Shown here: piece after piece, positions 3,001 through 52,105 of the stretch
Layout of the letters: each line of letters begins with the position of its first letter
Position numbering within the stretch: the stretch's first letter is position 1
Assembly: GCF_039634785.1 (NCBI RefSeq)
Contig: NZ_JBBIAB010000003.1
Span: 13,724-77,723, forward strand
Source of the DNA: Tistrella mobilis
GTDB lineage: Bacteria > Pseudomonadota > Alphaproteobacteria > Tistrellales > Tistrellaceae
DNA length: 64,000 bases
Reading direction: 5' to 3'
Notes under the pieces: model-generated
The model's database searches: none
Told to the model about the DNA's origin: nothing
What the model saw: the letters and a program-made list of their open reading frames with translations, nothing else
Program-made: the position numbers and the translations under genes

Positions 3001-3380
3001 CGCTGGTCCTGTGCATCGAAAACGAACCCGCGATCGCGGAAGCCATGACCGCCCTGCTCGGCGGCTGGTCCTGCGAGGTGGTCTGGGGCACCACTGCCGA
3101 GGCGGCGCTGTCGGCCCTCGGCGACCGCCGCCCCGACATCGTGCTGACCGATTATCACCTCGATCACGGCCTGAGCGGGCTCGACGTGCTCGCCGGCCTG
3201 CGCACCCGTTTCGGCGCCGCCCTCCCCGCCGCCGTCATCACCGCCGACCGCAGCGACGCCGTCCGGCGCGCGGCCGAGGCGGCCGACTGCCGCATCGCCT
3301 ACAAGCCGCTGCGCCCGGGCGCACTCCGGGCGCTGATCGCGCATATGGTCGCGAAGGGGCGAAGCCGCGCCGCCGAATGA
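3..3380 (+). CDS. Hybrid sensor histidine kinase with an N-terminal sodium:solute symporter (SSS) transporter domain, then PAS, HisKA, HATPase_c and a C-terminal receiver (CrbS/CbrA-like architecture). The 5' end is truncated by the window edge.
   Basis: The frame is open from base 3 (LLYALSLAVYCTSWTFYGAIG...) with multiple TM helices typical of the SSS family. H-box AAVSHDLLQPLHAARL. N/G boxes LIGNALRYT and GLGLGLSIVERLA. Receiver with LTDYHLDHGLSGLDVL. The first Met of the listed ORF (120) is internal to the TM domain. Confidence 0.85.
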   Translation: MLYALSLAVYCTSWTFYGAIGRAATGGFDFLSIYVGPILMIGLGWPVLAKMVRVAKAENVVSISDFISARYGKSRVLAALVTAIAVVVVLPYFALQLKAITISFEALAGNPFAGSVMPDLPGRTTLLVTVIMAAFAILFGVRTIHANEHHPGLMSAISAESLVKLAAALIVGAAITVVAAGGPVSLVGTALADPALAHMLEPRLGLSWWAMTLLSGFAILCLPRQFHVAVVENTHVGDIRTAAWLFPAYLIAINLFVVPVAMAGLLLFAGADMNADTFLVTVPLAMGEPGLALLAFIGGLSAATGMIVVGAVALSTMVCNDLIVPALMALRPGSRRLRDNPTRMLLLARRLAVIGILALAYINYLLLGSTFPLVTFGLVSFAGVAQFAPPLLLGLFFRQVTKAGAIAGLVAGFAAWVATVLLPSFAEAGVVAGSLLHDLLLRPGWISIDDITSVHDLDVLSGGALVSLALNLVVLLAVSRFTRQSDLEARQAERFVSMRHELGERRVHPRGATLADLHELAARYVGRTRADAAFADLAQARNPHTDGFDAAPPLRIDQEAVQATEWLLAGAIGSASARVVVASLLADRRLSRSDARSIIDEASRAILDQHTLLRSTIENVGKGICAFDRDFRILVWNRRFLDMLDVPESLITVGTPLSDIVDHLHARGEFSHDREIVTLLRRSDPDLRGRPDMYQRIRPDGTVLEVTSNPLPDGGFVAVFNDVTERHRAAEALREANEGLERGIAERTADLADAKAEADRANRAKTRLLAAVSHDLLQPLHAARLFISAARDRGNDPLVGQADAALRSVEQLLGDLLDITRLDTGVVKPSRGAVVVDEVLRPLMGEMAVVAARHGLKLVHVPSSVTVETDAVLLRRILQNLIGNALRYTRTGRVLVGCRRLGDRLRIEVHDTGPGIPAEKQAEIFQEFRQLDGGPGDRDKGLGLGLSIVERLAAILGHRVGLRSTPGRGSCFSVELPVSESRALARRVAPETRGGGFDGTLVLCIENEPAIAEAMTALLGGWSCEVVWGTTAEAALSALGDRRPDIVLTDYHLDHGLSGLDVLAGLRTRFGAALPAAVITADRSDAVRRAAEAADCRIAYKPLRPGALRALIAHMVAKGRSRAAE

Positions 3381-3398
3381 CCTCGGCTACGGGTGATG

Positions 3399-4052
3399 TC
3401 AGCTGCCCGCCGTCTCGACCTCGGTCGCATGCAGCGCCAGCCGGCCGGCCAGGATGGCGGCCTGGGTGCGGCTCACCACGCCCAGGCGGCGCAGGATCAC
3501 CGTCACATGGGCCTTCACCGTGGTTTCGACCACGCCCATTTCATAGGCGATCTGCTTGTTGAGCTTGCCTTCGGCAATGCCGGCCAGCACGCGCAGCTGC
3601 TGGGGGGTCAGGCCGGCGATGCGGTCGGCGACGTCGACATCCTCGGCCGTGTCGGCCTCGTCGGTGTCCGGCTGCCAGATCTGGCCCTCGATCACCGCAC
3701 GGATCGCGGCACCAAGCCGGTCGACCGGCGCCGATTTCGGCACGAAGCCCGAGGCGCCGTACTGCATCGCCCGGCGGATGGTGGCCGCATCCTCCATCGC
3801 CGAGACCACGATCACCGGAATTGCCGGATGTTCGTTGCGCAGCAGCACAAGGCCGATCAGCCCGTTCATACCCGGCATGTGCAGGTCCAGCAGCACGCAG
3901 TCGATGCCGTCATCCCGGGCCAGCACCGTTTCGACTCCCGAAAATTCCGAAGCCTGGATGGTCTCCGCCCCGGGCAGGCTGTCGGCCACCGCCTGGCAGA
4001 GTGCCGCCCGCATCAGCGGATGATCGTCGGCGATCAGGATCCGATACGACAT
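3399..4052 (-). CDS. Two-component response regulator, NarL/FixJ (LuxR-type HTH) family
   Basis: MSYRILIADDHPLMR receiver with conserved Asp (VLLDLHMPGMNG) and a C-terminal LuxR HTH (LTPQQLRVLAGIAEGKLNKQIAYEMGVVETTVKAHV). It is convergent with the kinase, 18 bp away. Confidence 0.9.
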   Translation of the reverse strand: MSYRILIADDHPLMRAALCQAVADSLPGAETIQASEFSGVETVLARDDGIDCVLLDLHMPGMNGLIGLVLLRNEHPAIPVIVVSAMEDAATIRRAMQYGASGFVPKSAPVDRLGAAIRAVIEGQIWQPDTDEADTAEDVDVADRIAGLTPQQLRVLAGIAEGKLNKQIAYEMGVVETTVKAHVTVILRRLGVVSRTQAAILAGRLALHATEVETAGS

Positions 4053-4157
4053 GTCCCGCCCTCCCCTCGGGTCCCGGGCATCCGGCTGCGTTGGCCGTAC
4101 CCTTATGAGGCAGGATCATGCGCAAGTTTCTGTCCGACGCAAGGCCGGTCTGCATAT

Positions 4158-4187
4158 GAATTGAAACGGACAGCCGAAGCTGCCCGT
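4158..4187 (-). terminator. Rho-independent terminator downstream of the MFS transporter gene (minus strand)
   Basis: On the minus-strand RNA: ACGGGCAGC-UUCG-GCUGUCCGU, a 9-bp stem with one G.U pair and a UUCG tetraloop, followed by UUUCAAUUCAUAU. Confidence 0.55.
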
Positions 4188-4244
4188 TCCATGATACCCC
4201 ATTCGCGGGTGCAGCACGCACCCTTGGGCTGTATGTTGCGTCGC

Positions 4245-5963
4245 TCAATCGTGCTGGTAGATGTCCACCGACCTGGTATCCCGGACGAAGAGCACGCCGA
4301 TCACCAGGGTCGCCGCCGCGATCACGATCGGGTACCAGAGGCCCGAATAGATGTCGCCGGTGGCGGCCACGATGGCGAAGCTGGTGGTGGGCAGGAAGCC
4401 GCCGAACCAGCCATTGCCGATGTGATAGGGCAGCGACATCGAGGTATAGCGGATCCGGGTCGGGAACATCTCGACCAGCATCGCCGCGATCGGGCCATAG
4501 ACCATGGTCACGTAGATGACCAGCACGGTCAGCAGCACGATCAGCATCACATGGTTGACCCGGGCCGGATCGGCCTTGGCGGGGTAGCCGGCCGCGGTCA
4601 TGGCATCGCCAAGCGCCTTGTTGAAGGCGGCGCCGGCGGACTGCGGGTCGACCGGGGCGGCGTGGCTGCCGCCGCCATGCAGGTTGACCTCGGTCTTCCC
4701 CGTGGCGCCCGATGCATCGTAGCTGTCGATCACCACATCGCCGACACGGATCTGGGCGATGGTGCCGGCGGGGGCGGCCTCGTTGCTATAGGGCGCGCCC
4801 TTCTTCACCAGGGCCGACTTGGCGATATCGCAGCTGCTGGTGAATTTCGACGTGCCGACCGGGTTGAACTGGAAGCTGCAGCTCTCCGGATCGGCATAGA
4901 CCACGATCGGCGCGCTGGCCACGGCCTGTTCCAGCGCCGGGTTGCCGTAATGGGTCAGGCCCTTGAAGATCGGGAAATAGGTCACGATCGCAAGCGCCAG
5001 GCCGACCATGATGATCGGCTTGCGGCCGATGCGGTCCGACAGGCTGCCGAAGATCACGAAGAAGGGCGTGCCCAGCAGCAGGGCGGCGGCGATCATCAGG
5101 TTGGCGTCCTGCGGATCGATCTTCAGGGTCTGCTGCAGGAAGAACAGGGCATAGAACTGGCCGGTGTACCAGACCACCGCCTGACCGGCGACCAGGCCGA
5201 ACAGCGCCAGCAGGACGATCTTGAGGTTCTTCCAGTTGCCGAAAGCCTCGGTCAGCGGCGCCTTCGAATGCTTGCCCTCTTCCTTCATCTTCTGGAAGAC
5301 CGGGCTTTCGTTCAGCATCATCCGGATCCAGACCGACACGCCGAGCAGCACGATCGAGATCACGAAGGGAATGCGCCAGCCCCAGCTTTCGAAGGCCTCG
5401 GCCGACATCGACACGCGGCAGCCCAGGATGACCAGCAGCGACAGGAACAGGCCCAGCGTCGCGGTGGTCTGGATCCAGGCGGTATAGGCGCCGCGGCGGC
5501 CATTCGGGGCATGTTCGGCGACATAGGTCGCCGCACCGCCGTATTCGCCACCCAGCGCCAGGCCCTGCAGCAGGCGCAGGATGATCAGGATCACCGGTGC
5601 GGCGATGCCGATGGTGGCGTAATTCGGCAGGATGCCCACGATGAAGGTCGAGGCACCCATGATCAGGATGGTGACGAGGAAGGTGTATTTGCGGCCGATC
5701 AGGTCACCCAGGCGGCCGAAAACCAGCGCACCGAAGGGACGCACGGCGAAGCCGGCGGCGAAGGCGAGCAGTGCGAAAATGTACGCCGCCGTCTCGTTCA
5801 CGCCCGAGAAAAACTGTTTGGCGATGATCGCGGCCAGCGAGCCGTAGAGGTAGAAATCGTACCACTCGAACACGGTTCCCAGCGAGGAGGCGAAGATGAC
5901 CTTCTTCTCCTTGCTGGTCATGGGTGCGGCCTTGCCCGTATCCGCCATGGATATGTTGGCCAT
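4245..5963 (-). CDS. MFS transporter, metabolite:H+ symporter (MHS; ProP/KgtP-like) family, with a ~135-aa hydrophilic insertion between predicted TM9 and TM10
   Basis: MHS signature GRLGDLIGRK. Start chosen at MANISMADTG (ATG 5961-5963) with a GGGAGG Shine-Dalgarno 6 nt upstream. The upstream part of the listed 666-aa ORF has no transporter features. Confidence 0.85.
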   Translation of the reverse strand: MANISMADTGKAAPMTSKEKKVIFASSLGTVFEWYDFYLYGSLAAIIAKQFFSGVNETAAYIFALLAFAAGFAVRPFGALVFGRLGDLIGRKYTFLVTILIMGASTFIVGILPNYATIGIAAPVILIILRLLQGLALGGEYGGAATYVAEHAPNGRRGAYTAWIQTTATLGLFLSLLVILGCRVSMSAEAFESWGWRIPFVISIVLLGVSVWIRMMLNESPVFQKMKEEGKHSKAPLTEAFGNWKNLKIVLLALFGLVAGQAVVWYTGQFYALFFLQQTLKIDPQDANLMIAAALLLGTPFFVIFGSLSDRIGRKPIIMVGLALAIVTYFPIFKGLTHYGNPALEQAVASAPIVVYADPESCSFQFNPVGTSKFTSSCDIAKSALVKKGAPYSNEAAPAGTIAQIRVGDVVIDSYDASGATGKTEVNLHGGGSHAAPVDPQSAGAAFNKALGDAMTAAGYPAKADPARVNHVMLIVLLTVLVIYVTMVYGPIAAMLVEMFPTRIRYTSMSLPYHIGNGWFGGFLPTTSFAIVAATGDIYSGLWYPIVIAAATLVIGVLFVRDTRSVDIYQHD

Positions 5964-6270
5964 GTATCCTCCCTGCAACGTGGCGTTGCTCAGACGTTTT
6001 CTGCGTTGGAAGACGCTGCCTGACGCCGATCCTGAAGCAGGGCCGTTCCCGCGGACCCGGATGCTTCGATCTTCCCCATCGCCCGTCAGGCCGGTCGATG
6101 GTGAAACGATGCGCCGCGCGGCCGAAGGACGCAGCCCCGACCTTGGTCGGGGTGAGATCCGATACAGACCCTTGAAATGAAAGAGGAATTCTTGTGCGCC
6201 GCAACATATCGTCGCATCGCAGCGCACAAATGCCTGCCGGGGCATTCACCCGGAGATTGCGCGCCTGGTC

Positions 6271-7242
6271 TCAGGCGGCGATCCAGCCGATCAGCAGATC
6301 GGCGAGCGCATCGGAATTGTCATCCATCATCGGCATGTGCGAATTGCCGCGGATGCCCATCGCCGGCAGGTCCATCAGGCTCGCCTCCACCCCGGCCGCC
6401 CTCAGCTGATCCACATGGCTGCGGGTGGTGGCGGCCAGATACGACCAGAACGGCGTCTCGTCGACGAAATCGCCCAGCATCAGCAGGCGCCGCTGCGGCC
6501 GGCCGTCGGGGCCCAGGGGCGACCAGCCTTGGGGCAGCGCCGGCATGCCCGAGGGCTCGATGCCGATGCAGCCGCGGACGAGATCCGGTCTGGCCGCCGC
6601 CGCCGCATGGGTGAACCAGCCGCCCTGGCTGTGGCCGACCAGGATGCAGGGGCCGATGGTTTCGATCACCGCGATCAGCGCCGCCAGCGCCTGGGGCGCC
6701 GTCGACAGCCAGCGCGGCACATGGTTGCGGCAAAGGTCGTCGAAGCCCGCCATCGGGAAACGCTGCCCCGGGAAGGGGCGCCGTGCCGCCATGTCTGCCG
6801 CAGCGCCCAGCCGATAGAGCGTCCAGGCCTGTTCGTCGGTGCGCATGATCGCCCGGCCCGGCCAGTGGCCATCGACCGCGCACCAGCCGGCACGGCCGCG
6901 CTCCACCCCGTCGACGACATGGGTGGTGAACCCCGCCTGAACGAAACGGGTCAACCAGCCGGGCCGGCCGTCGGGCGTCGTCTCCCACATCGATCCGGTC
7001 AGCGCGCCGCCATGGACCAGAACCAGCGGCAGCGCGCCGGGCCGGGCGTTGCGCGGCACGAAGCTCTGGACATAGGCCTGATCGGCGAAGACAGCGCCAT
7101 TGGGGTCGTGCACGAAATCGGGCGTGTCGGCCGAGAAATTGATCCGCTCAGGCGCCGCATCCCGGGTGACGACCCGCCCGCCGCCGCAGCGAAAGCTGCG
7201 GAAGCAGGCGAGATCCATCTCGTGGCCTCGGGCCTCGGTCAC
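6271..7242 (-). CDS. Alpha/beta-hydrolase fold esterase/lipase
   Basis: GHSQGG nucleophile elbow (LVGHSQGGW), about 320 aa. Its start overlaps the stop of the upstream binding-protein gene by 4 bp (7239-7242). Confidence 0.75.
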   Translation of the reverse strand: MTEARGHEMDLACFRSFRCGGGRVVTRDAAPERINFSADTPDFVHDPNGAVFADQAYVQSFVPRNARPGALPLVLVHGGALTGSMWETTPDGRPGWLTRFVQAGFTTHVVDGVERGRAGWCAVDGHWPGRAIMRTDEQAWTLYRLGAAADMAARRPFPGQRFPMAGFDDLCRNHVPRWLSTAPQALAALIAVIETIGPCILVGHSQGGWFTHAAAAARPDLVRGCIGIEPSGMPALPQGWSPLGPDGRPQRRLLMLGDFVDETPFWSYLAATTRSHVDQLRAAGVEASLMDLPAMGIRGNSHMPMMDDNSDALADLLIGWIAA

Positions 7243-8471
7243 TTCGCCACCAGCGGGCAGGTGCTTTCCGACAGCGGCCAGACCAGCTGGTCGCCGGGAA
7301 TGGTCGCCACGATATCGAGATAGTCCCAGGGGCCCTTGGATTCGGCCGGCGCCTTCACCCGGGCCAGATACATGTCCCGCACCACCCGGCCATCTTCGCG
7401 CAGCCGGGCATTGCGGCTATAGGGATCGTCGATCGGCAGCGCACGCATCTTGGCCGAAACCGCATCGGCATCGGTGCCGCCCACGGCATCCACCGCCTTC
7501 AGATAGTGCAGCACCTCGCCATAAACGCCGGCCTGAAGCATGCCGGGCATGGCGCCCACCCGCTCCATATAGCGCTTCGACAGCGCCCGTGCGCGGTCGT
7601 CGACATCCCAGTAGGACGGCGTGGTGAGATAGGTGCCCTGCGCCGCCTGAAGCCCCAGACCGTGGATGTCCGACAGCATCAGGATCAGGGCCGCCAGCTT
7701 CTGGCCGCCCGCGACCAGACCGAATTCGCCGGCCTGTTTGATGGTGTTGATCGTGTCGCCGCCGGCATTGGCGATGCCCACCACCTTCGCGCCCGAGGCC
7801 TGGGCCTGCAGCAGGTAGGACGAGAAGTCCGCCGTCGCCAGCGGATGGAACACCTCGCCCACCACCTGGCCGCCGGCGCCGGTGACCACGGCTGCCGCAT
7901 CGCGCGCCAGCTGATGGCCGAAGGCATAGTCGGACGCGATCATGAACCAGCTGTCGCCGCCGGCCTTCACCACCGCCCCGGCCGTGCCCCTGGAGAGGGC
8001 ATAGGTGTCGTAGGTCCAGTGCACGCCATAGGGCGAGCACGACTTGCCGGTCAGCGCCGGGGTGCCGGCGCCCGAGAACAGCACCATCTTCTTCTTTTCG
8101 CGGGCGATTTCCTGCACCGCCAGCGCCACAGCCGAATTGGGCACGTCGACGATCACGTCGACCCCGGCCTGATCGAACCATTCACGCGCGATCGACGAGC
8201 CGAGATCGGTCTTGTGCTGATGGTCGGCCGAGATCACCTCGACCGGACGGCCGGCAACCTTGCCGCCCATGTCTTCGACCGCCAGCCGCGCCGCCTCGAC
8301 CGAGCCCTTGCCGGTCGCATCGGCGGTAACGCCGCCGAGATCGGTCAGCACGCCGATCCGGATCGGCTTCATCTCGTCCGCCGCGGCCTGCCCGGCCACG
8401 GCCATCAGTCCCGCCACCACGGCCAGGACCACCGCCAGGCGGCCGCCGGCCGCCTTGCTCTTGTTCCGCAT
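7239..8471 (-). CDS. ABC transporter periplasmic substrate-binding protein, branched-chain amino acid-binding (LivK/LivJ-like, type I PBP) family
   Basis: Signal peptide (RLAVVLAVVAGLMAVAGQAAA) followed by a type-I periplasmic binding fold (IRIGVLTDLGG..., VVGIANAGGDTINTIKQAGEFGL). Confidence 0.85.
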   Translation of the reverse strand: MRNKSKAAGGRLAVVLAVVAGLMAVAGQAAADEMKPIRIGVLTDLGGVTADATGKGSVEAARLAVEDMGGKVAGRPVEVISADHQHKTDLGSSIAREWFDQAGVDVIVDVPNSAVALAVQEIAREKKKMVLFSGAGTPALTGKSCSPYGVHWTYDTYALSRGTAGAVVKAGGDSWFMIASDYAFGHQLARDAAAVVTGAGGQVVGEVFHPLATADFSSYLLQAQASGAKVVGIANAGGDTINTIKQAGEFGLVAGGQKLAALILMLSDIHGLGLQAAQGTYLTTPSYWDVDDRARALSKRYMERVGAMPGMLQAGVYGEVLHYLKAVDAVGGTDADAVSAKMRALPIDDPYSRNARLREDGRVVRDMYLARVKAPAESKGPWDYLDIVATIPGDQLVWPLSESTCPLVAK

Positions 8472-8626
8472 CTGGTTTCCTCCCGCTCCGGCGCCATGGC
8501 GCCGCGGGCTTCAGGGCGCAGAGGCCCGGCCCGTTCTTGTGTGCTCGGCTTGTGTGGTCGGGCATCTCGCGCCGGGTCGCCGATCTGCTATCGTGCGGAG
8601 CGCTGATGCCATGGGGAGCATAATCC

Positions 8627-8638
8627 TCCCATATGGGA
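8627..8638. promoter_or_regulatory. Perfect 12-bp palindrome TCCCATATGGGA in the divergent promoter region between the binding-protein gene and marR. Candidate MarR operator.
   Basis: Exact self-complementary 12-mer. It lies 80 bp upstream of the preferred MarR start. It overlaps the ATG of the longer listed ORF (8633), which argues against that start. Confidence 0.4.
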
Positions 8639-8716
8639 CGAATTGTAAACCCCCGCCAGACCAGGCTGCCACCAGGAGGCCCGCCCTTGCCCCGTCCGTC
8701 GAAGACCACCACCGAC

Positions 8717-9199
8717 ATGGAGGAGACGGCTCCCCTCGTCCGCGATCTGAAACTCTTCGGTCTGTTCGACACGGTGCCGATCCGCCAGGCCTATCGCCTG
8801 GCTTTCCTGACCAATTTCTACCGGGCGCCGCTGCTGCGCCGGATCGAGCAGGAACACGGGCTGACCCGCCCGGAATGGACGATCCTGATCTGTCTCAGCC
8901 ACCAGGACGGGCTGAACCCGCGCGACATCTGCGATTTCACCGAACAGCCGCGCAACAATGTCAGCCGCGGCGCTGCCCTGCTGGAAGCCAAGGGCCTGAT
9001 CACCCGCAGCCCCGACCCGGAGGATGCCCGCCGCGCGCTCCTGCACCTGACCGAGACCGGCCGCGCCCTCTATGCCCGGCTGATGCCGCTGTTCCAGGCG
9101 CGCGAGGCCGAAATGCTGGCAGTGTTGAGCCCCGAGGAGCGCGCGCAGCTCGACCATCTGCTGACCCGGCTGACGGCGGAGCTGCCGGTCTGGCGGTGA
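8717..9199 (+). CDS. MarR-family transcriptional regulator
   Basis: Winged-helix region LTRPEWTILICLSHQDGLNPRDICDFTEQPRNNVSRGAALLEAKGLITRSPDPEDARRALLHLTETGRALY. 161 aa from MEETAPL fits MarR size. The listed ORF starts at 8633 but the N-terminal extension is low-complexity. Confidence 0.8.
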   Translation: MEETAPLVRDLKLFGLFDTVPIRQAYRLAFLTNFYRAPLLRRIEQEHGLTRPEWTILICLSHQDGLNPRDICDFTEQPRNNVSRGAALLEAKGLITRSPDPEDARRALLHLTETGRALYARLMPLFQAREAEMLAVLSPEERAQLDHLLTRLTAELPVWR

Positions 9200-9279
9200 C
9201 CCCGCAGCCCGCATCCTCCGGAACCGATGGCGACGGCGCCGGTTGCGTCCCCGAACCGCAACCTGCAACGGAGCCCCCG

Positions 9280-9612
9280 ATGACCCGGATCACGCCTGAG
9301 ATGCAGCGCTGCATCGATGCCTGTCTCGCCTGCTATCAGTCCTGCCTGGGCACTGCCATGGGCCATTGCCTGGAAAGCGGCGGCCGCCATGTCGCGCCCG
9401 AACATTTCCGCCTGATGATGGCCTGCGCGGAAATCTGCCGCACCTCGGCCCATTTCATGCTGACCGGCACCCGCCACCACCGCCATGTCTGCCGCGAATG
9501 CGCCGAGATCTGCCAGGAATGCGCCCGCAGCTGCAACGACCTGGAGGGCATGGAGGCCTGCGCCGCAGCCTGCCGCCATTGCGCCGAACGGTGTCTGGCG
9601 ATGGCGGCGTGA
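9280..9612 (+). CDS. Cysteine-rich four-helix-bundle copper-binding protein (DUF326/Csp-like)
   Basis: 110 aa with 16 Cys arranged as repeated CxxxC/CxxC motifs on four predicted helices (CIDACLACYQSC, ACAEIC, CRECAEICQECARSC, CAAACRHCAERC). GGAG Shine-Dalgarno 9 nt upstream of the ATG at 9280. It sits 80 bp downstream of marR. Confidence 0.75.
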   Translation: MTRITPEMQRCIDACLACYQSCLGTAMGHCLESGGRHVAPEHFRLMMACAEICRTSAHFMLTGTRHHRHVCRECAEICQECARSCNDLEGMEACAAACRHCAERCLAMAA

Positions 9613-9702
9613 GGGTCACGCCATCTCGCCAAATGAGATAAATATCGTTCAGAGATGAAGAAGGCCCGGGTGGTTTATGCTGTCCGGGCTCCTTCACCGT
9701 CA

Positions 9703-9744
9703 ATCAGCAGCAGTGCCGAAATTTTTCATCGGACTGCTGCTGAT
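9703..9744. terminator. 12-bp perfect inverted repeat (ATCAGCAGCAGT-N18-ACTGCTGCTGAT) followed by a T6 run. Putative terminator or regulatory hairpin at the start of the low-GC islet.
   Basis: The arms are exact reverse complements. CAATTTTTTCG lies 9 nt downstream on the plus strand. Confidence 0.4.
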
Positions 9745-9950
9745 TCAGCTCGTCAATTTTTTCGACGTGATCTAGATTTATATCTTCATTAACTTGCACG
9801 AATGGAAAGCAATCGCTTTCATATTATCATTTTAATATATACAATTTTTGCGAGTATTTAAAATGATACAAGAGCGCATCCTGCCCCCTTTGAGCCATTC
9901 CCTGGCACTGATCAACTTCCCACTAACGGTAACTACGCTCAGAGCGTATA

Positions 9951-10220
9951 ATGTGCCGCACGCGGTTTGAGTGGGACGACGCCAAGCACAAGAAGAACCT
10001 GCGAGATCGCGGCTTTGGTTTTGACCAGGCCGCCAGGATCTTCTCCGGCCACGTCGTCGAATGGCTCGATGACCGCTTCACCTATGACGAGGACCGCATC
10101 TGCGCCCTGGGTATGGTCGACGGCCGACTTTATTGCGTTGTCTACACCATGAGGGGTGACACGATCCGGATCATCTCCGCCCGCCTCGCCACCAGAAGGG
10201 AGCAGTCGCTATGGCCATAA
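9951..10220 (+). CDS. brnT: BrnT-family type II toxin (DUF497 ribonuclease toxin)
   Basis: MCRTRFEWDDAKHKKNLRDRGFGFDQAARIF...LYCVVYTMRGDTIRIISARLATRRE matches the BrnT/DUF497 signature (FEWD..K...N..KHG.SF ... RIISAR.A). About 89 aa. Confidence 0.8.
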   Translation: MCRTRFEWDDAKHKKNLRDRGFGFDQAARIFSGHVVEWLDDRFTYDEDRICALGMVDGRLYCVVYTMRGDTIRIISARLATRREQSLWP

Positions 10221-10558
10221 CCCGCATGACGCTGGACGAGATCATGTCGCGACCTGCGGAGGTAGATCAGGCGAAGATAGATGCCACCACCGAAACCGAC
10301 CTCCGCCGGCATATGATCGAAGACGGACAGGATCCGGACGCCCCTCTCGACACCCTCCGCTTCCTGAACCCGCGCGACGTCCGCCGCCGGTTGGGCATGA
10401 CCCAGAAGCAGTTCGCGGACGTCCTGCATATCCCCCTGGGGACCCTGCGCAACTGGGAACAGGCCCGGACGGCGCCCGATCCGGCCGGGCGTGCCCTGAT
10501 GATCATCCTGCAGCGCGAACCCGAAGCGGCCCTGCGCGCTCTCCGGCAGTCTGCGTGA
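10211..10558 (+). CDS. brnA: BrnA-type/XRE-family HTH antitoxin (COG2944-like), cognate of BrnT
   Basis: 10-bp overlap with the brnT stop. HTH region MTQKQFADVLHIPLGTLRNWEQARTAPDPAGRALMIIL is typical of BrnT-paired antitoxins. Confidence 0.75.
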   Translation: MAITRMTLDEIMSRPAEVDQAKIDATTETDLRRHMIEDGQDPDAPLDTLRFLNPRDVRRRLGMTQKQFADVLHIPLGTLRNWEQARTAPDPAGRALMIILQREPEAALRALRQSA

Positions 10559-10649
10559 CCTGTGCTCTCGCCGAAGGTTCTTGCGGGATCGCAGATGCTC
10601 CCGAATCCGTGGCCAAGCCTATCCCAACAGCCATCTTGACGCCTGTGGA

Positions 10650-10660
10650 ATTGGTAGCGA
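10650..10660. repeat. 11-bp exact direct repeat (ATTGGTAGCGA) of the tRNA-Met 3' end and flank found at 11598-11608. Candidate att-site remnant.
   Basis: The same 11-mer sits at 10650-10660 and at 11598-11608. The second copy spans the last 8 nt of the tRNA plus 3 flanking nt. Confidence 0.4.
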
Positions 10661-10726
10661 CCGGTCGATACCATCGACACCACAGCACGAGCAAATTACA
10701 ATAACCGACTGAATTTTCTAATCTAT

Positions 10727-10957
10727 TCAGTCACCCACCGCCTTTCGTGCCAACTCAGCTGCGGCATTTACCTCAGCGACACGCTGTTCGGCGACGTGGA
10801 CAAGCGACTCACGCATACTGCGCGTCACCTTCACAGCGCCGCTAGCCACGCGATTAATCGCCCGCACGGAATATCCTGAAGCATCGGCAAACGCTGTCTG
10901 CCATCCGCTGGCTCCGTACAAGGCGCGAGCAATTGCCACAAATTCTTCATTCGTCAT
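10727..10957 (-). CDS. Hypothetical small protein (76 aa) with AT-rich codon usage, islet-borne
   Basis: Intact ORF MTNEEFVAIARALYGASGWQTAFADASGYS... An 8-bp inverted repeat (GACTGAAT-N10-ATTCAGTC, 10706-10731) overlapping the stop looks like a terminator. No recognisable family. Confidence 0.4.
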   Translation of the reverse strand: MTNEEFVAIARALYGASGWQTAFADASGYSVRAINRVASGAVKVTRSMRESLVHVAEQRVAEVNAAAELARKAVGD

Positions 10958-11186
10958 TTATTGTCATCTTGCAGTTTTTACATAGGCATTCAACGGATCA
11001 TCTACTTTTGGTTGCATATAGAGGCAAAACCGCCGTCGTAGGCCAACCGGAGTGCCTCAGCTGAAGTCAACTTGCTCCTCGGCCGGCAGCCCCTCGATGA
11101 CCGCCTCAATACGCTTCAGCCGTTCGCCCTCCTCAGGCGGAAGATCCTGAGGTGCGTCGGTTCGAGCTTCCGGTTTCCCACCAGCG

Positions 11187-11414
11187 TCAGGAGACCTGGT
11201 CACGCGCCTTGACCTGACGGAAAGCCGCATACATGTCGCGACCGACATTCTTCACGTCGGATGCCGGGCCGGATGGATTGCGGATGTTCTGGAATCTGCC
11301 GGTGACGGGCGGGGCCAGAGCGCCGGCGACGAACGAGCCCATGACGGTCAGCCCGGCCATCATCCCCGACACGAAGGCACCGGCCGCCCGCTTGCGATTT
11401 CGTCCGTTTTTCAT
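11187..11414 (-). CDS. Hypothetical small membrane protein (75 aa, one predicted TM helix)
   Basis: ATG at 11412-11414 is preceded by AAGGGGAG with 6-nt spacing. Hydrophobic segment AFVSGMMAGLTVMGSFVAGALA. The listed ORF starts 2 codons upstream at a GTG. Confidence 0.4.
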   Translation of the reverse strand: MKNGRNRKRAAGAFVSGMMAGLTVMGSFVAGALAPPVTGRFQNIRNPSGPASDVKNVGRDMYAAFRQVKARDQVS

Positions 11415-11529
11415 GGCCACCTCCCCTTACAGGGTCCGTCACATATAGATGACGTCGCCGTCCCACGCCGTCAATCTCGACCTGACGCGGCAGCAAAATG
11501 ACGATCCACCTGGCACCTCAACCGTCGAA

Positions 11530-11568
11530 ACGGAAAAAGGCCCGACTGACAGAAACGTCAATCGAGCC
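11530..11568 (-). terminator. Rho-independent terminator for the tRNA-Met gene (minus strand)
   Basis: The minus-strand RNA forms GGCUCGAUUGAC-GUUUCU-GUCAGUCGGGCC, a 12-bp stem with two G.U pairs, followed by UUUUUCCGUUUCG. Confidence 0.6.
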
Positions 11569-11600
11569 TTTTCCCACAGTGCCAGTAGCACTGCATTGAT

Positions 11601-11675
11601 TGGTAGCGAGGGAGGGATTTGAACCCCCGACCAAGGGCTTATGAGTCCCCTGCTCTACCACTGAGCTACCCCGCC
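11601..11675 (-). tRNA. tRNA-Met (anticodon CAU; elongator Met or lysidine-modified Ile2 cannot be distinguished from sequence alone)
   Basis: Reverse complement gives GGCGGGGTA-GCTC-AGTGGTA-GAGC-A-GGGGA-CTCATAA-GCCCT-TGGTC-GGGGG-TTCAAAT-CCCTC-CCTCGCT-A-CCA. The cloverleaf has a 7-bp acceptor stem, D and T arms, a U33-CAU-A37 loop and an encoded CCA. Confidence 0.85.
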
Positions 11676-11751
11676 GCAATGCGGTGGTGCCGGTTCGTCT
11701 TCGGCGCCGCCGCTCAGGTGGGCGTGAAATAGCGGATCGGCAGGCGGGTTG

Positions 11752-12570
11752 TCAAGGGGCGGTGTGACGGTTTTTGGCAGGCTGGTCCCCGATCGCGGTC
11801 GTGGCGGTCAGGCCGTAGAGGCGGGCCGCGGCGGCCGCGTCGTCGAGGATGGGCGGCAGGCGGTCGAGCAGACCGCGATACGCCGCCCGGGCCTCGTGGC
11901 GGGTATGGGGCCAGTCGCTGCCCCAGAGGATGCGGTCGGGGCCGAGCCGCTGCGCCAGCCAGGCGACATGGCCGTCCACCGCCACCCGGCTGCGATAGGG
12001 CGCGCTGGCCTTGACATGAACCCCATGATCCGACGGCAGGGCGGCCAGTGCCCGAAACCAGGGCTCGGCGGCCGGGTCCGCCGCCTCGGGCAGGCCCAGA
12101 TGGTCGATCACCAGCCCGCCCGCCGCCCTGGCGAGCGGCGCCAGAACCGGCGCCAGGCGGCTGCTTTCCAGCTGGATTTCCAGATGCAGCCCGGCATCGC
12201 GCATGCGCCCCAGAAAGCGCCGCACTTCCGGATCGGCCGGGTCGGGCACGGGGGCGCCCGCCACCAGGTTCCAGCGCAGGCCGCGCACCCCGGCCGCCCG
12301 CAGGCCGCTCAACTCCCCGGCCGCCGCGTCGGTATCGACGACCGCCACCCCGGCGAAGCGGCTGCGATCCAGCCGCTCCAGCGCGTCCAGCATCATGCGG
12401 TTGTCGGTTCCGAGAAAGCTGACCTGAACGATCACCCCGCCTTTCAGGCCGTGCGCCGCCAGCAGGTCGAGCCAGCCCGCCAGAGGTGCCGGCCGGTCGG
12501 GCAGATAGCGCACGCGGCCGACGGCCGCCACCTGATCGTAGACATGAACATGCGCATCGAAACCGATCAT
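11752..12570 (-). CDS. Amidohydrolase-2 family (TIM-barrel metal-dependent hydrolase)
   Basis: MIGFDAHVHVYD... metal-binding His motif. C-terminal WGSDWPHTRHEA motif. Start ATG 12568-12570 is preceded by GGAGG. The listed 780-aa ORF is a read-through of unrelated upstream sequence in this GC-rich frame. Confidence 0.8.
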   Translation of the reverse strand: MIGFDAHVHVYDQVAAVGRVRYLPDRPAPLAGWLDLLAAHGLKGGVIVQVSFLGTDNRMMLDALERLDRSRFAGVAVVDTDAAAGELSGLRAAGVRGLRWNLVAGAPVPDPADPEVRRFLGRMRDAGLHLEIQLESSRLAPVLAPLARAAGGLVIDHLGLPEAADPAAEPWFRALAALPSDHGVHVKASAPYRSRVAVDGHVAWLAQRLGPDRILWGSDWPHTRHEARAAYRGLLDRLPPILDDAAAAARLYGLTATTAIGDQPAKNRHTAP

Positions 12571-12586
12571 CTCGCCTCCATCATAT

Positions 12587-12621
12587 AGTTCTATATAGAA
12601 CTGGTTGACCTGAGGGGTCAA
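12587..12621. promoter_or_regulatory. Two adjacent perfect palindromes in the amidohydrolase/GntR divergent intergenic region. Candidate GntR operator(s).
   Basis: AGTTCTATATAGAACT (12587-12602, 16-bp perfect palindrome). TTGACCtgaggGGTCAA (12605-12621, 6-bp arms). Confidence 0.5.
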
Positions 12622-12657
12622 AGGGTTTAGGCAGGAAGGCAGAGGGAGACCAGAGCG

Positions 12658-13389
12658 ATGCCATATCAGTCCATGCCGTCCGATGAACGGCTGCCGGCCT
12701 ATCTGCGCCTGCGCGACGAGCTGGCGGCCCGCATCGCCGCCGGGGAATGGGGCCCCGACCGTGCGCTGCCGTCGGAAAACGCGCTCGCCCGCGATCACCG
12801 GCTGTCGGTGGGTACCGTGCGCAAGGCCGTGCAGCAGCTGGTCGATGAAGGCCTGCTGGAACGGCGCCAGGGCTCGGGAACCTATCTGCGCAAGCCCGCC
12901 TTCGACGCGACGCTGTTCCGCTTCTTTCAGATGCAAGGCCCGGGCGAGGATGCCCGCAGCATTCCGAAAAGCCAGCTGATCACCCGTGTCCGGATGACGG
13001 CGCCCGAGCCGGTCGCGGCGATCCTGGGCACGGCCGATACCATCCGGATCGAACGCGTCCGTTCGCTCTCGGGCCGGCCGATCCTGGCCGAGGAGATCTA
13101 CATCCGCGCCGATCGTTTCGAGGGGCTGGAAAGCCTGCCCGCCCACGAACTCGGCCCCCTGCTCTACCCGGTTTATTACGACCGCTTCGGGGTCTTCGTC
13201 GCACGCGCGATCGACGATGTCAGCTTCGGCCGGGCCGACGCCACCACCGCGGCGCGGCTGGGCATCGCCGAAGCTGCGCCGGTCGCCTGCATCGAACGCA
13301 CCGCCTTCACCATCGACGGCACCGCCGTCGAATGGCGGATCGCCCGCGGCGACGCGCTGAATTTCCGCTACCGCAGCCGGATCGGCTGA
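12658..13389 (+). CDS. GntR-family (HutC/UTRA subfamily) transcriptional regulator
   Basis: N-terminal GntR winged helix (LPSENALARDHRLSVGTVRKAVQQLVDEGLLERRQGSGTYL) plus a C-terminal UTRA-like effector domain. 243 aa. Confidence 0.85.
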   Translation: MPYQSMPSDERLPAYLRLRDELAARIAAGEWGPDRALPSENALARDHRLSVGTVRKAVQQLVDEGLLERRQGSGTYLRKPAFDATLFRFFQMQGPGEDARSIPKSQLITRVRMTAPEPVAAILGTADTIRIERVRSLSGRPILAEEIYIRADRFEGLESLPAHELGPLLYPVYYDRFGVFVARAIDDVSFGRADATTAARLGIAEAAPVACIERTAFTIDGTAVEWRIARGDALNFRYRSRIG

Positions 13390-13512
13390 ATCACCGCCCT
13401 CTGGCCGCCCTCTGGCCGCCCACGCCCGCCCGCGGATGCGCCCGCCGTGCAGGCCCGGCCAGACATATCGGGAAGCCGCCCCAGAGAAGACAACGTCCAG
13501 GGAGGGACGACA

Positions 13513-40301: not shown

Positions 40302-46696
<6,395 letters not shown>

Positions 46697-46700
<4 letters not shown>

Positions 46701-52101: not shown

Positions 52102-52105
<4 letters not shown>
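46697..52105 (+). CDS. Hybrid NRPS module: C - (vestigial A-domain C-terminal fragment) - acyl-AMP-ligase (FAAL/AL-type) adenylation domain - ketoreductase - T
   Basis: ATGA overlap with the upstream NRPS. C domain HHIVADGWS (47263-47289). ANL domain with FIQLSSGSTGVPKCIQVTHGGV, NWLPFDHVVPM, EFGMAEL, GRLKEMIVVRGANHYAHDVE, PKTTSGKIQR. KR Rossmann WLVTGGHGGLG and SSVVAHLPAAGTAAYAAANAAL. T domain FFAAGGHSLLAARI. Confidence 0.9.

What the first reader, a model, noticed from the sequence alone, without database searches (positions are those of the whole stretch)
9613..11600. AT-rich islet with a BrnT/BrnA toxin-antitoxin next to tRNA-Met: remnant of an integrated element
GC content collapses between the Cys-rich gene (which ends at 9612) and the tRNA at 11601, with long A/T runs. 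The islet holds a complete BrnT (DUF497) plus HTH-antitoxin pair with overlapping reading frames. It also holds two tiny ORFs with AT-rich codon usage unlike the host's.

The islet sits on the 3' side of the tRNA gene (the tRNA is on the minus strand, so the 3' side is leftward). That is the classic integration geometry. No integrase is present, so this looks like a degraded element.
Basis: partly seen in the sequence, partly recalled or inferred. Interest (0 to 1): 0.55.

Follow-up and report, generated by a model that had tools for sequence, protein, structure and literature searches.

The report
Toxin-antitoxin pair beside prophage relic
The AT-rich stretch next to a tRNA-Met gene in this Tistrella mobilis genome holds two ordinary accessory items side by side: an intact BrnT toxin / helix-turn-helix antitoxin pair, and a 1-kb relic of a phage-like element that once inserted into the end of the tRNA gene.

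Summary
The only three patches below 50% GC in the 64-kb window (mean 70%) lie inside 9613-11600. BrnT (PF04365, E 3.5e-25) overlaps a downstream HTH antitoxin by 10 nt. tRNA-Met(CAU) lies at 11601-11675 on the minus strand. No integrase is called within 10 kb on either side.

- **Relic, 10650-11613.** This is a relic of a phage-like element integrated into the tRNA 3' end. An 11-nt copy of the tRNA end (10650-10660) marks its far junction. Strain KA081020-065 has the empty site. A metagenomic strain has an occupied site with the same junction. A 55%-identical homologue of the relic's 76-aa gene in another sequence sits beside the same tRNA fragment. The relic keeps a Cro-like HTH gene, a truncated phage DUF2335 gene, a 75-aa gene and its own tRNA terminator.
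- **Toxin-antitoxin module, 9690-10614.** It lies outside that repeat and abuts the intact tRNA in the empty-site strain. It is still accessory: the most commonly sampled T. mobilis arrangement carries other genes there, and one lineage has a BrnT nonsense mutation. The antitoxin is HigA2/XRE-like, not BrnA.

Verdict: ordinary, a new member of known kinds, low interest.

The parts
9655..9700 (+). Terminator-like hairpin after the Csp (DUF326) gene. It marks the left border of the strain-variable interval.
   Evidence: Folds at -22.2 kcal/mol, z -3.8. By eye (printout), similarity to the common TA-less arrangement (B, locus L094) ends at about 9689.
9690..9950 (.). AT-rich leader (40.6% GC, minimum 30.7%) upstream of BrnT. 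Presumed promoter and operator region of the toxin-antitoxin operon.
   Evidence: GC. Three of the four promoter-like sites found in 9500-11800 lie here, at 9803-9862, against 0.9 expected. Present only in TA-bearing strains and the most diverged segment (87-96% identity). Function is inferred.
9702..9745 (.). Perfect 13-bp inverted repeat (stem extendable to about 17 bp) inside the leader. Role unknown: operator or terminator.
   Evidence: Inverted repeat I24. Folds at -26.8 kcal/mol, z -6.4. One arm carries an uncompensated change in L096.
9951..10220 (+). BrnT-family toxin gene, 89 aa, intact.
   Evidence: PF04365 at E 3.5e-25. phrog_4399 'ribonuclease toxin' at E 4e-27. PDB 7vd7 'toxin' at E 2.5e-8. 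Named 'BrnT family toxin [Tistrella mobilis]' by NCBI. A W38stop allele occurs in other strains.
10211..10558 (+). Antitoxin gene, 115 aa. N-terminal ~50-aa segment plus C-terminal XRE helix-turn-helix domain (HigA2-like architecture). Overlaps BrnT by 10 nt.
   Evidence: HTH_3 at 30 bits against a cut-off of 23; no BrnA match. Residues 50-115 match Atu1735 (2PPX) at E 2e-13, and V. cholerae HigA-2 at E 1e-6. Homologues in 99 plasmid records; both regions examined and the other non-Zymomonas annotated rows have a 'BrnT family toxin' gene beside them. pN/pS is 0.04-0.09.
10559..10614 (.). Spacer shared with the empty-site strains. Last segment collinear with KA081020-065 before the insertion.
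   Evidence: Window 2220-10614 aligns to L096 1-8404 at 95.4%. Segment identities 91-100%.
10615..10649 (.). Degenerate leftover of the original tRNA downstream flank. About 110 nt, including the original terminator, is missing relative to KA081020-065.
   Evidence: Alignments.
10650..10660 (.). attR core remnant. ATTGGTAGCGA is the last 9 nt of tRNA-Met plus 2 nt downstream, and is a direct repeat of 11599-11609.
   Evidence: Only match of 9 nt or more to the tRNA region on the left side. 0.3% of shuffles reach its score. Homologous to occupied-site junctions in L006 and L121, which share the element-side sequence CCG(A/C)TACCGACG.
10727..10957 (-). 76-aa gene at the attR-proximal end of the element. 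Predicted small Cro / C-protein / Aca2-like HTH regulator.
   Evidence: AlphaFold2 model with pLDDT 96.8, four helices. Best fold matches are C.Kpn2I, phage ZF40 Aca2, P22 C2 and 434 Cro (TM 0.47-0.64, probability 0.8-1.0, E 0.14-0.7). Weak PHROG hits. GC3 0.56. Only 11 relatives among 1.84 billion representative proteins. Homologues sit next to the same tRNA fragment in L006/L122 and L121. Present only in strains with the window's arrangement (A), with no synonymous differences among them.
10958..11072 (.). AT-rich stretch (45% GC) between the 76-aa gene and the truncated DUF2335 gene. Contains the presumed internal deletion joint.
   Evidence: GC. Homology with the common arrangement (B) resumes at 11073.
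11057..11248 (-). Truncated DUF2335 gene (pseudogene). Codons from the GTG at 11203 down to about 11073 match the first ~44 residues of the 166-aa protein of other strains. Four unrelated codons and a stop follow.
   Evidence: Translations compared. The full-length protein matches PF10097 at E 5e-16 and phrog_3996 at E 4.6e-36. Homologues occur in 20 phage genomes.
11187..11414 (-). 75-aa gene of unknown function at the tRNA-proximal end of the relic.
   Evidence: No Pfam, NCBIfam or PHROG hit. Present in arrangements A and B, absent from the empty-site strains.
11520..11598 (-). Double-hairpin terminator downstream of the tRNA (8-bp hairpin, then 19-bp stem followed by a U-rich tract). This is the element-supplied version.
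   Evidence: Folds at -43.2 kcal/mol, z -8.1. The empty-site strain has the same architecture with a different sequence (-45.6 kcal/mol, z -8.3). The flank is about 69% identical to the native-type flank, as carried by L006; L096's copy is aligned.
11599..11613 (.). attL core ATTGGTAGCGAGGGA, overlapping the 3' end of the tRNA gene.
   Evidence: The identity block shared by the empty attB (L096, L119), the occupied attR (L006, L121) and the window ends here.
11601..11675 (-). tRNA-Met (anticodon CAT), the integration target.
   Evidence: ARAGORN. Rfam RF00005 at 65.8 bits. 100% identical in all compared strains whose contig reaches the gene.

Best explanation
The interval between the Csp gene and tRNA-Met in Tistrella mobilis is a strain-variable integration hotspot. 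In this genome it holds two separate accessory modules.

**(1) Type II toxin-antitoxin operon, 9690-10614.** An AT-rich leader precedes the BrnT RNase toxin gene. The next gene, overlapping it by 10 nt, encodes an antitoxin with an N-terminal segment and a C-terminal XRE helix-turn-helix domain.
- Shown: both genes are intact. The antitoxin is under strong purifying selection. The same gene pair recurs on many alphaproteobacterial plasmids.
- Inferred: the antitoxin's N-terminal part wraps and neutralises BrnT. The HTH dimer represses the operon at the leader. The module acts as an addiction or phage-defence cassette.

**(2) Relic of a phage-like integrative element, 10650-11613 (about 0.96 kb).**
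- Shown: an 11-nt remnant of a 15-nt core (ATTGGTAGCGAGGGA) is repeated at the far end. A conspecific strain carries the empty site. Another strain carries an occupied site with the same junction and phage-like genes.
- Shown: the relic carries a Cro-like HTH gene, a truncated DUF2335 phage membrane gene, a 75-aa gene and its own copy of the tRNA terminator.
- Inferred: a site-specific integrase recombined the element's attP with the 3' end of tRNA-Met. This rebuilt the tRNA end and terminator from element DNA and pushed the old tRNA end leftwards. Later deletions removed the integrase and most cargo, so the relic can no longer move.
For: **Organism.** Tistrella mobilis, genome GCA_042685245.1.

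**Toxin-antitoxin module.**
- Family matches for both genes.
- Conserved BrnT-then-HTH order with overlapping genes on Methylobacterium and Gluconobacter plasmids; 99 plasmid records in all.
- Antitoxin pN/pS is 0.04-0.09.
- HigA2 has the architecture of an N-terminal disordered neutralising segment plus a C-terminal HTH (PMC5416850).

**Empty site.** L096 (KA081020-065) and L097 are collinear with window 2220-10614, and again from 11598 onwards. Only 152 nt lies between, holding a spacer, a terminator and the intact tRNA end.

**Occupied site.** L006 is identical to the empty site up to GATTGGTAGCGAGGGA, then switches to foreign DNA. That DNA begins with a homologue of the 76-aa gene. Contig L122 from the same sample adds genes matching phrog_12823 (E 1e-22) and phrog_4807 (E 1e-7).

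**Independent confirmation.** In L121 a 55%-identical homologue of the 76-aa gene lies 45 nt from CCCTCGCTACCAAT followed by a terminator. The element-side junction sequence is almost the same.

**Truncated DUF2335 gene and its phage affinity**.

**Element-specific terminator with the same fold as the native one**.

**Age.** Segment 10615-11072 is 96.5-100% identical among strains with the window's arrangement, and the 76-aa gene has no synonymous differences. Between the same strains the neighbouring Csp gene has pS 0.15.

**Composition**. **No integrase within 10 kb**.
Against: - No intact copy of the element and no integrase was recovered anywhere, so the integration mechanism is inferred from junction anatomy.
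- The window's far repeat is only 11 nt. Unrelated 12-13-nt matches to the tRNA occur elsewhere in the window by chance, so the repeat is convincing only together with the comparative data.
- The right junction of the occupied strain (L006) was not seen, because the contig ends.
- The common TA-less arrangement (B) carries the tRNA-proximal relic genes but no recognisable far repeat. Its history is therefore conjecture.
- The BrnT W38stop allele occurs in both occupied-relic and empty-site loci. A simple linear history is impossible, and recombination between strains must be assumed.
- Toxicity, neutralisation and autoregulation of the toxin-antitoxin pair are untested.
Confidence: 0.8

Rival explanations
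1. One reading: the whole of 9613-11600, toxin-antitoxin pair included, is one degraded element that integrated at tRNA-Met.
For: - The whole interval varies between strains.
- All the low-GC patches lie in it.
- BrnT and the antitoxin match phage protein families: phrog_4399 at E 4e-27 and phrog_2104 at E 2e-11.
Against: - The toxin-antitoxin pair lies outside the tRNA-derived repeat.
- In KA081020-065 and CP121034.1 it sits next to an unoccupied, intact tRNA-Met with a native terminator.
- In L006 the element starts only after the toxin-antitoxin pair and that terminator.
- No tRNA fragment lies at 9600-9960.
- The pair's GC3 (0.79-0.81) is near host values, while the 76-aa gene's GC3 is 0.56.
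- The pair's synonymous divergence (pS 0.03-0.10) differs from the zero seen in the relic's 76-aa gene.
Confidence: 0.07
2. Tandem accretion: the toxin-antitoxin block is the last remnant of an older, separate element that integrated at the same tRNA-Met. The later element pushed it leftwards, and its own far repeat has decayed beyond recognition.
For: - The most commonly sampled T. mobilis arrangement lacks the toxin-antitoxin pair at this position.
- The arrangement in CP121053.1 and CP121061.1 (F) has an inverted, 78%-identical fragment of a second BrnT/antitoxin module next to a phrog_3243 gene in the same slot.
- The module family is common on plasmids and is represented in PHROGs.
- A strongly AT-rich leader in a 70% GC genome.
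Against: - No tRNA fragment or other repeat lies at the left edge.
- Codon composition is nearly host-like.
- The closest relatives without a Tistrella label are one unnamed 88%-identical protein, then 66% or less, so no donor is identifiable.
- The absence in other strains could equally be a deletion.
Confidence: 0.3
3. Nothing was inserted. The window's arrangement is ancestral, and the other strains represent different deletions and replacements. The short repeat is a coincidence.
For: - Chance 12-13-nt matches to the tRNA exist elsewhere in the window.
- The common arrangement (B) shares 11073-11600 with the window at 96-99% identity.
Against: - The empty site has a complete native-type terminator and a perfect tRNA end. 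A deletion would not create these.
- The same junction (tRNA fragment plus conserved element-side bases plus a homologue of the 76-aa gene) recurs in L006 and in the unrelated contig L121.
- The 76-aa segment has no synonymous divergence between strains whose flanking genes have pS 0.11-0.15.
- The DUF2335 gene is visibly truncated in the window.
Confidence: 0.04

Closest known systems
[quoted passage not shown] 2012, as cited in PMC11980606)
   Same: - The toxin belongs to the same Pfam family (PF04365).
- Toxin-first gene order, stated as T/A for the family in PMC11980606.
- Small overlapping bicistronic operon.
   Different: - Canonical BrnA has a C-terminal ribbon-helix-helix domain (PMC11980606).
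- The partner here is an XRE helix-turn-helix protein with no BrnA match.
- PMC11980606 notes HTH partners only as a minority among BrnT-antitoxin fusions (2 of 33).
Vibrio cholerae HigB2/HigA2 (PMC5416850) and Agrobacterium Atu1735 (PDB 2PPX)
   Same: - Antitoxin architecture: an N-terminal segment followed by a C-terminal XRE HTH domain.
- Sequence similarity of the HTH domain: E 2e-13 to 2PPX, E 1e-6 to HigA-2.
- Toxin-first order.
   Different: - The toxin is BrnT-family, not HigB2/RelE-family.
- Disorder and folding-on-binding of the N-terminal segment are inferred, not tested.
BrnT + 'helix-turn-helix domain-containing protein' pairs on alphaproteobacterial plasmids (Methylobacterium currus NZ_CP089297.1; Gluconobacter oxydans 621H NZ_LT900342.1; Acetobacter)
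   Same: - Same two families, same order, overlapping genes.
- Antitoxin 40-56% identical over 95% of its length.
   Different: - Those are plasmid-borne and annotated only by homology.
- This copy is chromosomal, or on a megareplicon, next to a tRNA.
tRNA-targeting prophages and genomic islands (P4-like and lambdoid integration into the 3' end of tRNA genes; established general knowledge)
   Same: - Target is the 3' end of a tRNA gene.
- Short direct repeat of the tRNA end at the distal boundary.
- tRNA end rebuilt from element DNA.
- Empty and occupied alleles exist within one species.
- Atypical composition and phage-family cargo.
   Different: - No integrase, excisionase or structural genes remain here.
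- Only about 1 kb is left.
- The intact parent element has not been seen, so its class (prophage, satellite or island) is unknown.

Membership tests
BrnT toxin family (PF04365 / DUF497) | Sequence match to the family model above the curated threshold | tested here: met
   88.6 bits against a cut-off of 34.5, E 3.5e-25, covering profile positions 1-77 of 77. phrog_4399 at E 4e-27.
BrnT toxin family (PF04365 / DUF497) | Toxin gene upstream of, and co-oriented with, a small DNA-binding antitoxin gene | tested here: met
   9951-10220 followed by 10211-10558, with a 10-nt overlap. The same layout occurs on plasmids.
BrnT toxin family (PF04365 / DUF497) | Ribonuclease activity, and growth inhibition relieved by the partner | not testable with these tools
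   Needs expression experiments. The only indirect hints are that a W38stop allele is tolerated in one lineage and that the antitoxin is under strong constraint.
BrnA antitoxin (RHH type) | C-terminal ribbon-helix-helix domain / match to the BrnA_antitoxin model | tested here: not met
   No BrnA or RHH family at E <= 0.1. The matches are HTH_3, HTH_31 and Xre-like-HTH. The canonical RHH nature of BrnA is stated in PMC11980606.
HigA2-like / XRE-HTH antitoxins | C-terminal XRE helix-turn-helix domain similar to known antitoxins | tested here: met
   HTH_3 at 30 bits against a cut-off of 23. HigA-2 at E 1e-6 and 2PPX at E 2e-13. Sub-threshold matches to MqsA-family and NadS models.
HigA2-like / XRE-HTH antitoxins | N-terminal toxin-neutralising segment | not tested
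   Residues 1-50 lie outside the HTH matches. Their role is inferred by analogy with VcHigA2.
tRNA-integrated element (prophage or genomic island) remnant | Lies at the 3' end of a tRNA gene, with a direct repeat of the tRNA end at the far boundary | tested here: met
   ATTGGTAGCGA at 10650-10660 and 11599-11609. The full 15-16-nt core is seen in L006 and L121.
tRNA-integrated element (prophage or genomic island) remnant | An unoccupied site exists in close relatives | tested here: met
   L096, L097, L100 and L119 have the intact tRNA with a native terminator and none of 10615-11598.
tRNA-integrated element (prophage or genomic island) remnant | Site-specific integrase gene | tested here: not met
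   None within 10 kb on either side. None in the fragments of the occupied strain. This is why it is called a relic.
tRNA-integrated element (prophage or genomic island) remnant | Mobile-element or phage gene content and atypical composition | tested here: met
   DUF2335 matches phrog_3996 at E 4.6e-36 and occurs in 20 phage genomes. The 76-aa protein has a Cro / C-protein-like fold. GC3 is 0.56-0.64, with 45-52% GC intergenic stretches.

The most novel reading that the evidence does not exclude
Three features recur in T. mobilis strains and in at least one other sequence: the 76-aa Cro-like gene, the 15-nt core ATTGGTAGCGAGGGA, and the conserved element-side bases CCG(A/C)TACCGACG. Together they may define an undescribed, rare family of small phage-like integrative elements, possibly satellites, specific for tRNA-Met in marine Alphaproteobacteria. 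The flanking BrnT/HigA2-type hybrid module would then be a resident defence or stabilisation cassette of this hotspot rather than a passenger.
Probability: 0.15. Interest if true: 0.4.

Novelty: new member of a known kind. Interest (0 to 1): 0.22.

Why it matters
Mostly as clean annotation. It separates a probably functional toxin-antitoxin operon from a dead prophage relic. It also corrects the antitoxin's family assignment.

The locus is a natural series of empty, occupied and decayed alleles of one tRNA-Met integration site within a single marine species. That series could serve as a marker for strain typing, or for studying how integration hotspots erode.

The BrnT toxin with a HigA2-like HTH antitoxin is a widespread pairing that was not found studied experimentally here. 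The Tistrella copy offers paired natural alleles: an intact toxin, and a W38stop toxin with the antitoxin retained.

None of this changes current understanding.

Tried and rejected
- **Genome-contig scan with the neighbouring amidohydrolase.** The best hit was 61% identical, so no syntenic relatives were obtained.
- **Csp homologue search.** Nothing between 99% and 78% identity, so no sister-species locus was available for an outgroup.
- **Search for an intact parent element or integrase.** All of these were empty:
  - 76-aa and 75-aa proteins, and a 76-aa family alignment, against viral contigs;
  - the same alignment against metagenome contigs;
  - the junction pattern against viral and metagenome contigs;
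  - element protein against phage genomes;
  - element DNA against plasmids.
- **Word-index homologue search of the 76-aa protein.** It found only a 99%-identical copy.
- **Eight-sequence alignment for locus search.** Too divergent to be used.
- **tRNA fragment at the left edge of the toxin-antitoxin block, or in the common and Csp-deleted arrangements (B and F).** None above chance.
- **Rfam scan of 8500-12500.** Only the tRNA; no riboswitch or sRNA in the AT-rich leader.
- **TATAAT at 9947-9952 as the promoter -10 box.** Rejected because it overlaps the BrnT start codon.
- **L100 as a deletion derivative carrying the element's terminator.** Rejected, because one search shows it has the native empty-site flank.
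- **Tiny ORFs inside the AT-rich leader (31-45 aa).** No family hit for the two scanned (31 and 40 aa), and none shows a host-like GC3 signal.
Full report
**Source and observation**

The window comes from Tistrella mobilis, GCA_042685245.1, contig JBHUNG010000010.1. The stated features are all present.
- ARAGORN and Rfam place tRNA-Met (anticodon CAT) at 11601-11675 on the minus strand, so the islet is on its 3' side.
- In 150-nt windows the 64 kb averages 70.2% GC (sd 5.7). The only three patches under 50% all fall inside the finding: 9621-9981 (minimum 30.7%), 10621-10771 and 10841-11091.
- The ORF at 9951-10220 is a full-length BrnT toxin (PF04365, E 3.5e-25). The ORF at 10211-10558, overlapping it by 10 nt, carries an XRE helix-turn-helix domain.
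- None of the genes called within 10 kb on either side has a recorded hit to an integrase, recombinase or transposase Pfam family.

**The toxin-antitoxin pair**

The partner is not BrnA. Canonical BrnA ends in a ribbon-helix-helix domain (PMC11980606). The protein here matches only HTH families.

Its residues 50-115 resemble Agrobacterium Atu1735 (PDB 2PPX, E 2e-13) and Vibrio cholerae HigA-2 (E 1e-6). VcHigA2 has an N-terminal disordered toxin-neutralising segment followed by a C-terminal HTH domain for dimerisation and DNA binding (PMC5416850). The 115-aa protein has the same layout, so the same division of labour is the most likely mechanism. This is inferred.

The pairing is not a one-off.
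- tblastn finds homologues of the antitoxin in 99 plasmid records, mostly alphaproteobacterial. In the two regions examined a 'BrnT family toxin' gene lies upstream in the same orientation and overlaps the antitoxin gene. The other annotated Gluconobacter and Acetobacter rows also list a BrnT gene at the match; the Zymomonas rows list only a 'DUF1870 family protein'.
- At least 194 proteins in the large protein collection match at E <= 1e-10. After the Tistrella cluster (98%) comes one unnamed protein at 88%, then 66% or less.

Within T. mobilis the antitoxin is under strong purifying selection: 8-9 synonymous against 1-2 non-synonymous differences, pN/pS 0.04-0.09. BrnT is intact in this genome. 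One lineage (L090, L100-102, L111, L112, L114, L115) carries the same W38stop mutation while keeping the antitoxin.

GC3 of the two genes (0.79, 0.81) is close to host genes (0.82-0.87).

**Strain comparison**

Exact-protein look-ups returned the same locus from many T. mobilis genomes and metagenomes, with flanks 92-98% identical to the window. Between the Csp gene and the tRNA there are at least five arrangements.

| Type | Content between Csp and tRNA-Met | Where seen |
|---|---|---|
| A | Toxin-antitoxin pair, 76-aa gene, truncated DUF2335 gene, 75-aa gene | This window, L090, L111-L116 |
| B | A 148-aa gene, full DUF2335 (166 aa) and the 75-aa gene; no toxin-antitoxin pair | All 47 contigs read under the two commonest Csp variants, including Tara Oceans assemblies and four NCBI genome records (two of them ~5-Mb CP records) |
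| C | Toxin-antitoxin pair, then 152 nt, then the tRNA | KA081020-065 (CP003239.1), CP121034.1, L100 |
| D | As C, but foreign DNA starts inside the tRNA end | L006, sample SRR14126293 |
| F | Csp internally deleted, an inverted 78%-identical fragment of another BrnT/antitoxin module, a 300-aa phrog_3243 gene, then the native terminator and tRNA | CP121053.1, CP121061.1 |

That condition is not met.

**The integration scar**

Type C is an empty site. The window is collinear with L096 up to 10614 and again from 11598.

Type D matches type C (one substitution in the terminator stem) through the native double-hairpin terminator and GATTGGTAGCGAGGGA. It then switches to CCGATACCGACGG..., where the tRNA would continue GGGATTTGAACC. 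This is the displaced 3' fragment of a tRNA gene at the far junction of an integrated element.

The window has the same junction in decayed form. ATTGGTAGCGA lies at 10650-10660, followed by CCGGTCGATACCATCGAC. About 110 nt of the old flank is missing. The 11-mer alone is only modestly significant: 0.3% of shuffles reach its score, and unrelated 12-13-mers occur elsewhere in the window. Three things make it secure.
- The element-side bases are homologous to those in L006.
- In both the window and L006, the first element gene ends about 70 nt from the fragment and encodes related C-termini...AAAELARKAVGD against ...AAAERARKAAGK.
- In an unrelated JGI contig (L121), a 55%-identical homologue of the 76-aa protein is followed 45 nt later by CCCTCGCTACCAAT and a terminator. 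The element-side sequence there is nearly the same.

At the tRNA-proximal end the window has a double-hairpin terminator. It has the same architecture as the native one but a different sequence: -43.2 against -45.6 kcal/mol, both z about -8, and about 69% identity to the native-type flank carried by L006. This is expected if the element rebuilt the tRNA end and its terminator from its own attP arm.

**What the relic contains**

- **76-aa protein (10727-10957, minus strand).** It belongs to a very small family, with 11 hits among 1.84 billion representative proteins. It models with pLDDT 96.8 as a four-helix HTH protein. The closest folds are R-M controller proteins, phage ZF40 Aca2, P22 C2 and 434 Cro.
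- **63-aa ORF at 11057-11248.** It is the first ~44 codons of the DUF2335 gene that is full-length in type B, cut at about 11073. The full protein matches phrog_3996 at E 4.6e-36 and has homologues in 20 phage genomes.
- **75-aa gene.** It has no family match.
- **Contig L122, from the same sample as L006.** It shows two further genes of the occupied element, matching phrog_12823 (E 1e-22) and phrog_4807 (E 1e-7).

The parent element was therefore phage-like. Neither an intact copy nor its integrase was found.

Segment 10615-11072 occurs only in type A strains. It is 96.5-100% identical among them, and the 76-aa gene has no synonymous differences. Between the same strains the neighbouring Csp gene has pS 0.15. 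The relic is therefore younger than the strain divergence, or has spread by recombination.

**What remains open**

The toxin-antitoxin block is accessory. How it arrived is unknown.
- It has no tRNA fragment at its left edge.
- Its absence from type B could be primary or due to a deletion.
- An older integration at the same tRNA is a reasonable rival, at about 0.3.

Type B carries the tRNA-proximal relic genes but no far repeat. The W38stop allele occurs in both A and C arrangements. Recombination between strains must therefore have shuffled the two halves of the locus.

**Verdict**

This is a correct observation of an ordinary kind. It comprises a BrnT toxin with a HigA2-like HTH antitoxin (a known but experimentally neglected pairing) and a separate, dead, phage-derived scar at a tRNA-Met integration site. 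Both lie inside a hotspot that differs between conspecific strains. It is a new member of known kinds and of low interest.

Noticed in passing
window 40302-52105 (+), and probably on to 64000: Two giant non-ribosomal peptide synthetase ORFs: 2132 aa with two C-A-T modules, and 1802 aa with C-A-KR-T. They coincide with a rise in GC to about 74% from 41 kb onwards. This is possibly the didemnin cluster known from T. mobilis (from memory), which was not checked.
   Followed up: partly
L096 = CP003239.1 / NC_017958.1 against L097 = CP121034.1: In strain KA081020-065 this locus lies on a 1.13-Mb replicon filed as a plasmid in PLSDB. In newer complete genomes the same locus is on records of about 5 Mb. 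This indicates either replicon fusion or a difference in assembly or classification.
   Followed up: no
window 12491-13432 (GntR regulator gene): This ~940-nt segment, which carries the GntR gene right of the tRNA, is absent in L090, L100 and L101. There the amidohydrolase gene abuts the TctC gene. It is a second strain polymorphism, on the other side of the tRNA.
   Followed up: partly
L119 / L120 (CP121053.1, CP121061.1), locus coordinates 10001-11600: In these strains the Csp gene has an internal deletion that leaves a 41-aa ORF. The slot holds an inverted fragment 78% identical to window 10199-10360, from a second BrnT/antitoxin module. It also holds a 300-aa gene matching phrog_3243 at E 1e-64, of unknown function.
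   Followed up: partly
L090, L100-L102, L111, L112, L114, L115 (equivalent to window 10062-10064): All share a BrnT W38stop nonsense mutation (plus V36A) with an intact antitoxin gene. It occurs both in loci with the prophage relic and in loci with the empty tRNA site. This implies recombination between strains within the locus.
   Followed up: yes
L121 1-470: The homologue of the 76-aa gene is preceded by a partial, near-identical tandem copy of itself. This could be tandem elements or an assembly artefact.
   Followed up: no
L122 1-140: An AT-rich region upstream of the occupied element's genes carries repeated AAAA(T)TACGATTT motifs that look like operators.
   Followed up: no
window 9280-9612 and 8633-9199: The left neighbours are a four-helix-bundle copper-binding Csp/DUF326 protein and a MarR regulator. 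The closest Csp relatives outside T. mobilis are 78% identical or less and come from scattered Alphaproteobacteria.
   Followed up: partly
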